Shown here: piece after piece, positions 1 through 3,000 of the stretch
Layout of the letters: each line of letters starts with the position of its first letter
How positions within the stretch are numbered: the first letter of the stretch is position 1
From: a virus
Reading direction: 5' to 3' (one strand)
UHGV virus genome: UHGV-0322174
Length of the DNA: 32,168 nucleotides
Program-made: the position numbers

Positions 1-3000
1 GGAAAAAATCACAACAGGTGTGTCATACACCACGTCAGCGGTGGGAACGGGCTACTGGTTCCTGCAGTTGCTGGACAGGGTTTCCCCGTCTCAGTGGGCG
101 GCAATAGGCGTGCTGGGGAGTCTGCTGTTTGGGCTGCTGACGTACCTGACTAACCTGTATTTCAAAATCAAAGAGGACCGGCGTAAGGCGGCGCGGGGAG
201 AGTAAGCTGATGAGCAGGAAATTCCGCTATGGTTTATCAGCGGTCGTTCTGGCGCTGATTGCTGCGGGCGCTTCTGCGCCTGAAATCCTCGACCAGTTTC
301 TTGACGAAAAAGAAGGTAACCACACCACGGCATACCGTGATGGTGCGGGTATCTGGACTATCTGCCGCGGTGCCATCCTGGTGGATGGCAAACCTGTCGT
401 TCCGGGCATGAAGTTGTCGAAGGAAAAATGCGACCGGGTTAACGCCATTGAGCGTGATAAGGCGCTGGCATGGGTGGAGAAAAACATCAGAGTGCCACTG
501 ACCGAACCGCAGAAAGCGGGCATCGCGTCATTCTGTCCGTACAACATCGGGCCTTCGAAATGCTTCACCTCAACGTTTTACCGGAAACTGAACGCAGGAG
601 ACCGGAAAGGTGCATGTGCTGAAATCCGCCGATGGATATATGACGGCGGCAGGGACTGTCGGAACCGCTCAAATAACTGTTACGGGCAGGTATCGCGGCG
701 TGACCAGGAGAGCGCGCTGGCGTGCTGGAGTATCGACAGATAAGCAGAATATTCTGCTGAAAAATGCCGTTGACCAACGCGAACGGATAACACGAAACCC
801 TGCGAACTGGCAAAATTTAAGTGAGTAAAAGTAAAAACCCCGTTTGTTGGCAGCAAGCGGGGTTTTGTGTTTCTGACCTTGAATAAGGCAAGGGAGAAAT
901 TATGGGTAGGGAGGTTCTTTCCCTGTGAGGAAGTATAAAAGATTCTTTCTGAGGTTGTCCATTATGAAAGGCATTGAGGTGGAGACGCCAGCAAGTCTGG
1001 ATTTAACAAGAGCGGCAGCTTTTGCCATTCGTATTGTGGCAATTGCTGTTCTGGTCTGGGCAATCCGTTGGTGGTGATATGAATCGTGTGCTGTATGGCG
1101 TGCTTATTGTCCTGCTGCTTGGTTGTGGATCGCTGTGGCTGGCAACAGACCATTACCGTGATAACGCCATCACCTACAAAGAGCAGCGAGATGATGCGAA
1201 GACAAAACTCAGCCAGGCGAACGCCACCATTGCTGACATACAGCAGCGCCAGCGTGATGTTGCTGCACTCGATGCCAGATACACCAGGGAGCTTGCTGAT
1301 GCTAACGCGACTATTGAAAGTCTCCGTGCTGATGTTTCTGCTGGGCGTAAGCGCCTGCAAGTCGCCGCCACCTGTGCAAAGTCAACGACCGGAGCCAGCG
1401 GCATGGGCGATGGAGAAAGCTCAGGACTTACAGCAGATGCTGAACTCAATTATTACCGTCTCCGAAGTGGAATCGACAAGATAACCGCGCAGGTTAACTA
1501 CCTGCAGGAGTACATCAGGATGCAATGCCTCGATTAACAGAGCCAGCTCAATCGCTGGCCTTTTTTATGAGGAGAGATATAACCTGAATCAATGCCAGTG
1601 CATTATCAACAAATGGATCACTGGGTAAGCTCGTTTGGTTTTAAATGTCCGTCGAGAATCAGATTGTGATTTTCCCGATGCAGAACCAGTGTGCCCATAT
1701 AATCAGGTTTAAATCTCCATCCATTCATTTTTTTTGCAATTCTGGACAGACAGTGATTATGTGTGAAAATCACAGTAACATGATCTGATTTTGATATTTT
1801 AAGGATATTATTTACTGCGTTATCATCACATGTCGATATGTCCGGAATAGTTGCTGTCTTACCTCCCGAAAAAAAAGTGGCTGTCTGCATTGTTCGGAGT
1901 GTGTCTGTAGAATAGAGACTGTAGTATGGAAACATTCTTCTGAATTTATCTCCATATTGTTGAGCTTTGTTAGCTCCGTTTACTGTGATTCCCTCATGTG
2001 CTGAAAGACATATTCTTTGGGAGCGATCGCATCTTTCCCCATGCCGGATGAGAAAAATAATGGGATGTTTCTGGTTAATCTCAGTGACATCGTTCACATC
2101 AAGTCTGACTGGAGTTCTTACAATGTATATGATGGATACAGAAACGATTATGACAAGTAAAAATATAAGAAGAGATTTTGTTAGCGTTTGATTTAACATA
2201 TAAATTCCCTTGTCTGTGTTGAAAATGGGCATTATTATGCGTAAATCTTATGTAATCCTTAAGGATTGTCTGACGTGGTGATATGACGCGAAATACAGTG
2301 GGTACACAGAATGCTGTGAACAACGACGAAATGGGCATTGGTAGCGGTACTGGTGCTTTTTTTATTGGTTGGTTGCTCAAGTCTTGATAAAGCGCGTTAG
2401 CTTTTTGGTATTGCCTCTTAGGTCTGTAAAATTGCCGACGGTGTCCGGCAGTGCATGCAGGGCTGATCGTCTATGAGAACAGAATATATTGCTAAAAATG
2501 AAGTGTGCGTCAATGCTTATAAAGCATGCAATTCTGTATTTCTAACTATTCAATAAAATAAATTCTTTCTGTCGCAGTGAATATACAAATGTTGATCAGC
2601 GCTCGATGTGGCGACGGGTTTCTATATCAGGAGACTTTGGCATTTATCCGCGAGGCAGCCTATCTGGTGCTGTAGTGGAATGAAGCGGATATAACCTAAA
2701 TAAGGTTAAACATTAATCAGACATGGCTCTGCTGTGTGAAATCTGAAAATTTACAGCAGTCATTGTGCATCAGTTTTTAACAGAGAACGTCAGAAGGTGA
2801 CATGGCAAAGCTGGACTGGAAAAAGCTGGAGCAGGCATTTCGACGCGAACATGTCAAAACCGGCATAAAGCTTCAGGACTGGTGCCGTCAGAACAATATC
2901 AGTTATGACACGGCTCGGCGGTACATTAAACTGCGCAAACACTCCCCCAGAAATACAGAGAAAAGTGCGCAGAAAAATGCGCAAATTGATGATCAAAAAA

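What the first reader, a model, noticed from the sequence alone, without database searches (positions are those of the whole stretch)
2247..2263. PmrA/BasR-box-like direct repeat upstream of the ais-like gene
In the gene's orientation the sequence CTTAAG-N5-CATAAG matches the YTTAAK-N5-YTTAAK PmrA box with one mismatch, close to the start of the ais-like gene. If functional, the prophage gene would be tied to the host PmrAB envelope-stress regulon, as chromosomal ais is.
Basis: inference. Interest (0 to 1): 0.45.

Follow-up and report, generated by a model that had tools for sequence, protein, structure and literature searches.

The report
PmrA/BasR-type promoter on prophage ais gene
The repeat is real and is very probably the activator-binding part of a host PmrA/BasR-controlled promoter that travels with an LPS-modifying (ais-like) gene between E. 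coli prophages, so the phage cargo gene is probably switched on by the host's iron/acid envelope-stress sensor; this rests on sequence comparison and has not been tested experimentally.

Summary
The motif is present as described: minus strand 2263..2247 reads CTTAAG-GATTA-CATAAG. A pattern count over the window is not above chance. Three other lines of evidence are strong.

1. With a weight matrix built only from arnB/pbgP/eptA sites, this is the best-scoring 17-mer of 64,304 in the window.
2. It has the layout of PmrA-dependent promoters: box, 10 nt, -10 hexamer AATAAT (2236..2231), no -35, a leader of about 25 nt, then the ATG at 2199. The 10-nt spacing matches K-12 arnB. The distance from box to ATG (-64) matches K-12 eptA (-63).
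3. The ais-like gene is a recurrent AT-rich moron lying between the lysis and terminase genes of different E. coli prophages. In every prophage lineage examined (50-86% protein identity), TTAA...TAA of the box stay invariant while the surrounding DNA has diverged to random. The -10 at the fixed 10-nt gap is kept in 5 of 6 lineages.

Paralogues outside phages lack the box. Moron-specific DNA ends 11 nt beyond it.

BasR binding and BasR-dependent expression remain untested. It is a new member of a known promoter class. Interest is moderate.

The parts
2247..2263 (-). PmrA/BasR-box-like direct repeat CTTAAG-GATTA-CATAAG. Half-site 1 is 2263..2258 and half-site 2 is 2252..2247. Predicted position is about -39 to -23 relative to the transcription start.
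   Evidence: Sequence. Best PWM score in the window. TTAA and TAA are invariant in all moron lineages in both the anchored and the unanchored alignment.
2237..2246 (-). 10-nt gap (ATTTACGCAT) between the box and the -10 hexamer.
   Evidence: The same 10-nt gap occurs in 8 of 9 moron promoters and in K-12 arnB.
2231..2236 (-). Predicted -10 hexamer AATAAT (5 of 6 matches). There is no -35: AGGATT at 17-nt spacing matches 2 of 6.
   Evidence: A -10-like hexamer lies at the fixed gap in 5 of 6 lineages, against a 4.4% background (binomial P about 1e-6). None is found in the opposite orientation. The sigma-70 consensus scan finds no complete promoter here.
2222..2226 (-). Predicted transcription start region, giving a leader of about 24 nt.
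   Evidence: Inferred from the position of the -10. Not mapped.
2206..2211 (-). Shine-Dalgarno-like AAGGGA, 6 nt before the ATG.
   Evidence: Sequence.
1618..2199 (-). ais-like gene (193 aa, WP_000934362.1): a histidine-phosphatase paralogue of the LPS core heptose(II)-phosphate phosphatase Ais/PmrG, with an N-terminal hydrophobic anchor.
   Evidence: NCBIfam NF011945 scores 202 bits (cut-off 142). The PmrG equivalog scores 113, below its cut-off of 170. Pfam His_Phos_1 is matched. RefSeq start. The catalytic R52, H53 and H147 are invariant.
2264..2274 (-). Last 11 nt of moron-specific DNA upstream of the box. The cassette boundary lies between 2274 and 2275.
   Evidence: The backbone of moron-free prophages joins at 2275.
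1542..1559 (.). GC-rich hairpin between the Rz stop and the ais-like stop. It is a clear terminator for the + strand and only a weak candidate for the moron transcript.

Best explanation
The repeat is the activator site of a PmrA/BasR-dependent sigma-70 promoter that forms one unit with the ais-like moron.

Proposed mechanism (inferred): when the host sensor BasS/PmrB is stimulated (Fe3+, Al3+, mild acid), a phosphorylated BasR dimer binds head-to-tail to CTTAAG and CATAAG. The box stands in for the missing -35 element. BasR recruits RNA polymerase to the -10 hexamer AATAAT 10 nt downstream. Transcription starts near 2224 and runs leftward, antisense to the silent phage late operon. It produces a short-leader mRNA for a membrane-anchored periplasmic histidine phosphatase related to Ais/PmrG, which presumably removes the heptose(II) phosphate of the LPS core. 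The lysogen would thus gain an extra, stress-inducible LPS-remodelling enzyme.

Shown here: the motif, its geometry, its selective conservation, the cassette boundary, and the gene's family.

Inferred, not shown: BasR binding, inducibility, the transcription start, and the enzyme's substrate.
For: 1. Sequence and rank: the site is the best of 64,304 17-mers under a PWM built from arnB orthologues, K-12 eptA and the K. pneumoniae pbgP box.

2. The mismatch is tolerated. The single mismatch (CATAAG) is at the position that is already non-consensus in the footprinted and structurally solved pbgP site (CCTAAG). PmrA's base contacts are to 'TAA' (PMC3973317; PMC10570014). E. coli BasR has the identical recognition helix TNTLEVHIH.

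3. Geometry: box, 10 nt, then AATAAT, as in K-12 arnB (CTTAAGGTTAAGTTAAT, 10 nt, TAAAAT). The box starts at -64 from the ATG, against -63 for the perfect eptA box. [quoted passage not shown]

4. Phylogenetic footprint: moron copies in other prophages and one plasmid (L005-L011, L023-L033, L119, L123; 50-86% protein identity) all have a box at -64 to -71 with 0-2 mismatches. Perfect examples are CTTAAGGACTCCTTAAG and CTTAAGGATTTTTTAAG. The 100 nt upstream of the box is about 50% identical between lineages, which is the random baseline. An unanchored MAFFT alignment places the invariant columns on TTAA, TAA, the -10 and the ATG.

5. Statistics: per-lineage shuffle P is 0.0002-0.003 for four lineages. 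The -10 at the fixed gap gives P about 1e-6. The background rate is about 4e-5 per position.

6. Specificity: paralogues in an IncI tra operon, an AraC island and an EAL island have no box. In a Salmonella copy an IS element removed it.

7. Cassette: moron DNA (36.8% GC against 52% for the backbone) ends 11 nt beyond the box.

8. Biological fit: ais/pmrG is a known PmrAB regulon member (PMC1525208). PmrG dephosphorylates heptose II (PMC8129183).
Against: There is no experimental evidence of BasR binding, of the transcription start or of induction, and no paper on these genes was found.

The window-level pattern count is not significant.

The PWM score (14.5 bits) is below the reference sites (17.7-26 bits), although those sites trained the matrix.

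The L007 lineage has a weak box (2 mismatches; shuffle P 0.045). The plasmid copy L009 lacks a good -10 at the 10-nt gap.

The lineages are homologous, so the P values that assume independence are overstated.

The protein fails the PmrG equivalog cut-off, so its substrate may differ.
Confidence: 0.7

Rival explanations
1. The conserved direct repeat is a real activator site, but it is used by another OmpR/PhoB-family response regulator (for example QseB, the closest paralogue of PmrA) or by an unknown host or phage factor, not by BasR.
For: An 11-bp-spaced direct repeat next to a -10 without a -35 is generic for this regulator family. Only conservation of TTAA...TAA is shown, not the identity of the binding protein.
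Against: The half-site sequence matches the PmrA consensus specifically (CTTAA-N5-CTTAA; CTTAAG/XTTAAT). It scores top with a PWM made only of PmrA sites. Several lineages carry perfect YTTAAK-N5-YTTAAK boxes. The cargo gene is a paralogue of a PmrA-regulon enzyme.
Confidence: 0.15
2. The repeat is a vestige. The box was inherited from an ancestral chromosomal PmrA-regulated locus and is no longer used. In the prophage the gene is expressed constitutively from the -10, or by read-through.
For: A Dryocola chromosomal homologue has a similar module (L034), which suggests a chromosomal origin. A Salmonella copy survives with the box replaced by an IS element.
Against: The core positions stay invariant while neighbouring bases are randomised over 50-86% protein divergence, which indicates continuing selection. 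There is no -35 to support constitutive transcription. No same-strand upstream gene exists to provide read-through, because the neighbouring genes are on the other strand.
Confidence: 0.07
3. The repeat is a chance AT-rich near-palindrome with no function.
For: Pattern count in the window: 3 hits against 1.07 expected, with 12 of 100 shuffles at least as high. The moron is AT-rich.
Against: The box is present at the same position in every prophage lineage and in the plasmid copy. It is accompanied by a fixed-gap -10 and a fixed orientation. It is absent from paralogues in other contexts.
Confidence: 0.03

Closest known systems
E. coli K-12 eptA (pmrC) and arnB (pmrH/pbgP) PmrA/BasR-dependent promoters
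   Same: All share a YTTAAK-N5-YTTAAK direct repeat oriented toward the gene. arnB has the same 10-nt gap to an A/T-rich -10. eptA has the box at -63 from its ATG, against -64 here. None has a canonical -35 (PMC10570014).
   Different: This site has one non-consensus base (CATAAG) and a lower PWM score. It lies on a prophage moron rather than in the core genome. Binding and the transcription start have not been demonstrated.
Chromosomal ais (E. coli b2252) / pmrG (Salmonella)
   Same: The product is homologous (about 43% identity, histidine phosphatase with the catalytic residues kept). ais/pmrG belongs to the PmrAB regulon (PMC1525208). PmrG dephosphorylates heptose II (PMC8129183).
   Different: The chromosomal genes have no dedicated sense-oriented box plus -10 near the start codon. 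The only good box in the ais-arnB intergenic region is the arnB box 150-245 nt away, facing arnB. The prophage protein fails the PmrG equivalog cut-off and has a different N-terminal anchor.
Phage morons: lysogenic-conversion genes with their own promoter placed between the lysis and packaging genes, such as lambda bor (own knowledge)
   Same: The position (after Rz, before the terminase genes), the opposite orientation to the late operon, the atypical GC content, the absence from related phages, and an own promoter all match.
   Different: Here the promoter appears to be wired to a specific host two-component system, and the regulatory site is conserved as part of the mobile cassette. A dedicated terminator is not clear.

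Membership tests
PmrA/BasR-dependent (pmra-box) promoter | Two hexamer direct repeats (YTTAAK, or CTTAAG/XTTAAT) separated by 5 bp | tested here: met
   CTTAAG-GATTA-CATAAG has one mismatch. It has the top PWM score in the window. The consensus is taken from PMC3973317, PMC10570014 and PMC1525208.
PmrA/BasR-dependent (pmra-box) promoter | TAA core in both half-sites, the bases contacted by T187, N188, V192 and H195 | tested here: met
   Both half-sites keep TAA. The mismatch is at the same position as in the validated CCTAAG half-site. The E. coli BasR recognition helix is identical to that of K. pneumoniae PmrA.
PmrA/BasR-dependent (pmra-box) promoter | The box overlaps or replaces the -35, with a -10 hexamer about 8-10 nt downstream and no canonical -35 | tested here: met
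   AATAAT lies 10 nt downstream, the same gap as K-12 arnB. The -35 position matches 2 of 6.
PmrA/BasR-dependent (pmra-box) promoter | Conservation of the box in homologous promoters | tested here: met
   The box is found in all prophage lineages and in the plasmid copy, and its flanks are randomised.
PmrA/BasR-dependent (pmra-box) promoter | Transcription start about 20-25 nt downstream of the box | not testable with these tools
   No transcript data. The start is predicted near 2224.
PmrA/BasR-dependent (pmra-box) promoter | Binding by phosphorylated PmrA/BasR, and expression that depends on basRS and is induced by Fe3+ or mild acid | not testable with these tools
   This needs EMSA or footprinting and reporter assays. 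No published data were found.
Ais/PmrG LPS core heptose(II)-phosphate phosphatase | Match to the NCBIfam subfamily model NF011945 above its cut-off | tested here: met
   202 bits against a cut-off of 142.
Ais/PmrG LPS core heptose(II)-phosphate phosphatase | Match to the PmrG equivalog model NF052369 above its cut-off | tested here: not met
   113 bits against a cut-off of 170. It is a paralogous subfamily, not the PmrG orthologue.
Ais/PmrG LPS core heptose(II)-phosphate phosphatase | Histidine phosphatase catalytic motif (RHG and the second His) | tested here: met
   Pfam His_Phos_1 is matched. R52, H53 and H147 are invariant in 23 family members.
Ais/PmrG LPS core heptose(II)-phosphate phosphatase | Removal of the Hep(II) phosphate from the LPS core | not testable with these tools
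   This needs LPS chemistry.
Phage moron | A discrete insertion in a late-region intergenic site, absent from related phages, with atypical composition and an own promoter | tested here: met
   Boundary at 2274/2275 compared with the moron-free prophage L002. GC is 36.8% against 52%. The same slot is used in prophages with different lysis cassettes.
Phage moron | Own transcription terminator | tested here: inconclusive
   The hairpin at 1542-1559 has a U-run only on the + strand. On the minus strand the tail is weak.

The most novel reading that the evidence does not exclude
The ais-like morons are a self-contained, mobile 'plug-in' to the host PmrAB regulon. A cassette of about 0.7 kb, made of a PmrA box, a -10 and an LPS-core phosphatase paralogue, moves between unrelated lambdoid prophage backbones (and at least one plasmid). 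It makes lysogens remodel their LPS core when the host senses Fe3+ or acid, for example in the gut. This would change resistance to metals or cationic peptides, or block superinfecting phages that use the core as receptor. In E. coli the mobile copy would be more directly PmrA-controlled than the chromosomal ais gene, which lacks a box of its own.
Probability: 0.45. Interest if true: 0.6.

Novelty: new member of a known kind. Interest (0 to 1): 0.45.

Why it matters
If confirmed, this would be a clear example of a prophage cargo gene that carries its own binding site for a host two-component regulator. The host's envelope-stress regulon would then gain a member each time the phage integrates. 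The strains that carry it include the E. coli O104:H4 outbreak lineage and the laboratory strain ML35. A PmrA-induced extra LPS-core phosphatase could affect their resistance to iron, aluminium or cationic peptides, and their phage susceptibility. It also provides a natural set of diverged PmrA boxes (0-2 mismatches, fixed geometry) for studying site strength. The mechanism itself, a PmrA box replacing the -35, is well known, so the advance is one of scope rather than principle.

Tried and rejected
- Window-level pattern count as a significance test: not significant. I replaced it with a PWM rank, a background rate and comparative tests.
- CATAAT (2239..2234, 7-nt gap) as the -10: rejected in favour of AATAAT at the 10-nt gap, because only the 10-nt register is conserved across lineages and matches arnB.
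- ATG at 2232 (204-aa ORF) as the start: rejected. It overlaps the predicted -10, it exists only where the -10 happens to be followed by G, other lineages have no equivalent, and RefSeq uses 2199.
- Reading the site on the + strand (it also has one mismatch there): rejected. No -10 follows in that direction in any lineage, and several lineages score worse in that orientation.
- Expecting the same module at chromosomal ais/pmrG: not found.
- Expecting the box at all mobile paralogues: not found for IncI TraG or for the AraC-island and EAL-island copies.
- SNPs among variants about 99% identical: none fall in the promoter, but there are too few to be informative.
- Literature: Marchal et al. 2004 (PMC395753) is not held. 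Searches for prophage ais plus PmrA, for BasR box lists and for the protein accessions found nothing relevant.
- Phage collection search: only phage GER2 carries the gene.

Full report
**Context.** The window is a lambdoid prophage. Positions 1540-2800 are 100% identical to a prophage in E. coli O104:H4 and in related strains (43 of 5,426 complete genomes). They are 99.4% identical to phage GER2. Upstream lie a holin, a lysozyme and Rz (210-1537, + strand). Downstream lie the terminase genes (2802 onward, + strand). Between them, on the minus strand, is an ais-like gene. RefSeq starts it at the ATG at 2199, giving 193 aa. The protein matches the NCBIfam 'LPS core heptose(II)-phosphate phosphatase' subfamily (202 bits, cut-off 142). 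It fails the PmrG equivalog model (113 bits, cut-off 170). It has the His_Phos_1 domain. It is about 43% identical to K-12 Ais.

**The observation.** Window 2247-2263 reads CTTATGTAATCCTTAAG on the + strand. It has one mismatch to YTTAAK-N5-YTTAAK. The plain pattern count does not exceed chance: 3 hits against 1.07 expected, and 12 of 100 shuffles are as high. Two of the hits are this one site read on both strands, because CTTAAG is a palindrome. The third hit (18139-18155) lies antisense inside an ORF.

A weight matrix built only from sites outside this gene family gives a clearer answer. The matrix used arnB boxes of five enterobacterial genomes, the K-12 eptA box, and the footprinted K. pneumoniae/Salmonella pbgP box. 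It ranks the minus-strand reading first of all 64,304 17-mers in the window.

**Anatomy.** In the gene's orientation the sequence reads: CTTAAG GATTA CATAAG, then atttacgcat, then AATAAT, then gcccattttcaacacagacAAGGGAatttat, then ATG. The main features are:

- A -10-like hexamer (AATAAT, 2236..2231) lies 10 nt after the box.
- The -35 position (AGGATT) matches 2 of 6, and the consensus promoter scan finds no complete sigma-70 promoter.
- The implied start near 2224 gives a leader of about 24 nt with a Shine-Dalgarno-like AAGGGA.
- The alternative ATG at 2232 overlaps the -10, so it would not be transcribed.

[quoted passage not shown] The box lies around -37 to -21, and the base-specific contacts go to the TAA of each half-site. 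The validated pbgP box is CTTAAT-N5-CCTAAG (PMC10570014; PMC3973317). The single mismatch here (CATAAG) is at the same position that is non-consensus in that validated site, and TAA is intact. E. coli BasR has the same recognition helix (TNTLEVHIH) as the K. pneumoniae protein used for the structures.

Two bona fide BasR promoters from K-12 show the same geometry. arnB has CTTAAGGTTAAGTTAAT, 10 nt, then TAAAAT. eptA has a perfect CTTAAGGTTGGCTTAAT starting at -63 from its ATG, against -64 here.

**Comparative evidence.** The protein has many E. coli paralogues at 40-85% identity. DNA and protein searches recovered copies in other prophages and one copy in a plasmid island. In the prophages the gene always lies between the lysis cassette and the terminase genes, always antisense to them, and the lysis cassettes are of different types.

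Every one of these copies has a box-like repeat starting 64-71 nt before its ATG:

| Sequence | Locus |
|---|---|
| CTTAAGGATTACATAAG | L005, L023, L025 |
| CTTAAGGATCACATAAG | L006 |
| ATTAATTGCCTCATAAG | L007 (2 mismatches) |
| CTTAAGGACTCCTTAAG | L008 (perfect) |
| CTTAAGGATTCCTTAAG | L026 (perfect) |
| CTTAAGGATTTTTTAAG | L119 (perfect) |
| ATTAAGCGTTATTTAAT | L009 (plasmid) |
| GTTAAGATTTCCTTAAT | L010 |
| GTTAAGATTTTCTTAAT | L011, L031, L033, L123 |

Ten nucleotides after the box there is AATAAT, TATAAT, CATAAT or TATATT in all copies except the plasmid one. That is 5 of 6 lineages against a 4.4% background, binomial P about 1e-6. No such hexamer exists in the opposite orientation.

Between lineages the coding sequences are 63-91% identical and the box-to-ATG segment 53-84%. 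The 100 nt upstream of the box are about 50% identical in all but the two closest lineages (L010/L011, 87%), which is the random baseline for this alignment scoring. An unanchored MAFFT alignment of the upstream regions puts its invariant columns on TTAA, TAA, the A.A.T of the -10 and the ATG.

Dinucleotide shuffles give P of 0.0002-0.003 for a site this good at -75..-60 in four lineages, and 0.045 for L007. In 161,000 positions of these prophage loci only 7 other sites have one mismatch or fewer. The lineages share ancestry, so these probabilities are not strictly independent. The argument rests on selective retention against a randomised background.

**Specificity and cassette limits.**

- Paralogues in other settings have no box: the IncI plasmid TraG inside the tra operon, copies next to AraC-type regulators, and copies next to EAL-domain genes.
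- In a Salmonella copy an IS element has replaced everything upstream of the -10.
- Chromosomal ais/pmrG of Escherichia, Citrobacter and Salmonella have only the arnB/pbgP-oriented box, 150-245 nt from the start, and no sense-oriented box plus -10 module.
- Moron-free prophages share the window's sequence only from 2275 rightward. Moron-specific DNA therefore ends 11 nt beyond the box.
- The cassette is 36.8% GC against 52% for the phage backbone.

The box is thus the outermost conserved element of a mobile unit of about 0.7 kb.

**Interpretation.** The best-supported reading is a PmrA/BasR-dependent promoter that belongs to the moron. BasS senses Fe3+ and mild acid (PMC8129183). Phosphorylated BasR would bind the box, substitute for the -35, and drive transcription of a membrane-anchored periplasmic phosphatase related to PmrG, which dephosphorylates heptose II of the LPS core (PMC8129183). 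The gene is antisense to the late operon, so this would be lysogenic-state expression. Binding, inducibility, the transcription start and the substrate are all inferred.

**Rival explanations.**

- Another OmpR/PhoB-type regulator uses the site. This is possible, but the half-site sequence is specific to PmrA.
- The box is a vestige. This conflicts with the selective conservation and the missing -35.
- The match is chance. This is effectively excluded.

**Novelty.** I found no publication describing these prophage genes or their regulation. The open library is incomplete, and key PmrA-regulon papers were not held. The promoter type is well known. What is new is its presence as a conserved, portable part of a prophage moron family, with a more canonical PmrA promoter than the chromosomal ais gene. 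I rate it a new member of a known kind, of moderate interest.

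Noticed in passing
window 2275-2400: This stretch is a degenerate duplicate of the junction 'end of a small ORF plus the 5' start of Rz' that is intact in the moron-free prophage L002. 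The window also has an intact Rz at 1079-1537. The + strand terminator-like hairpin at 2333-2358 lies inside this remnant.
   Followed up: partly
window 2276-2323 vs L005/L006/L025: A 48-nt segment present in the window and in the moron-free L002 is deleted in the L005, L006 and L025 moron lineages, just upstream of the box.
   Followed up: partly
L117/L118 2434-2500 (Salmonella enterica): A 70%-identical copy of the gene has an IS3-family element immediately upstream. Homology to the other moron promoters begins at the -10, so the PmrA box has been replaced.
   Followed up: partly
L115 1878-2462 (IncI/K plasmids; about 1,400 plasmid records): The IncI-type conjugation gene at the traG position encodes an Ais-like histidine phosphatase (about 45% identity) inside the tra operon, with no PmrA box. 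It suggests LPS-core or envelope remodelling linked to conjugation.
   Followed up: no
L121 (AraC-type neighbours); L125/L127 (EAL-domain neighbours); P0066: Further ais-like paralogues sit in non-phage islands and have no box. One protein cluster is named 'transcriptional activator AfrS' by a source, which looks like a misnomer for a histidine phosphatase.
   Followed up: no
H65, NZ_CP025747.1 (E. coli ML35): ML35 carries a 100% identical copy of the moron and its promoter. To my knowledge this laboratory strain is widely used in antimicrobial-peptide permeabilisation assays. The moron could matter for its envelope phenotype.
   Followed up: no
L003 2079-2351 (phage GER2): GER2's annotation shortens the gene to 273 nt, although there is no indel relative to the window (7 substitutions in 1,261 nt). 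This is an annotation artefact.
   Followed up: yes
L034 1407-1480 (Dryocola clanedunensis chromosome): A 44%-identical chromosomal homologue has GATAATGTTCCCTTAAG, then 10 nt, then AATAAT, starting at -73. This is a possible chromosomal relative of the moron promoter.
   Followed up: no
L053-L113: Distant homologues (27-35% identity) of the Ais-like phosphatase are widespread in Pseudomonas chromosomes.
   Followed up: no
window 18139-18155 (-): The only other one-mismatch match to the box pattern lies antisense inside the ORF at 17915-18541. I judged it a chance match.
   Followed up: yes
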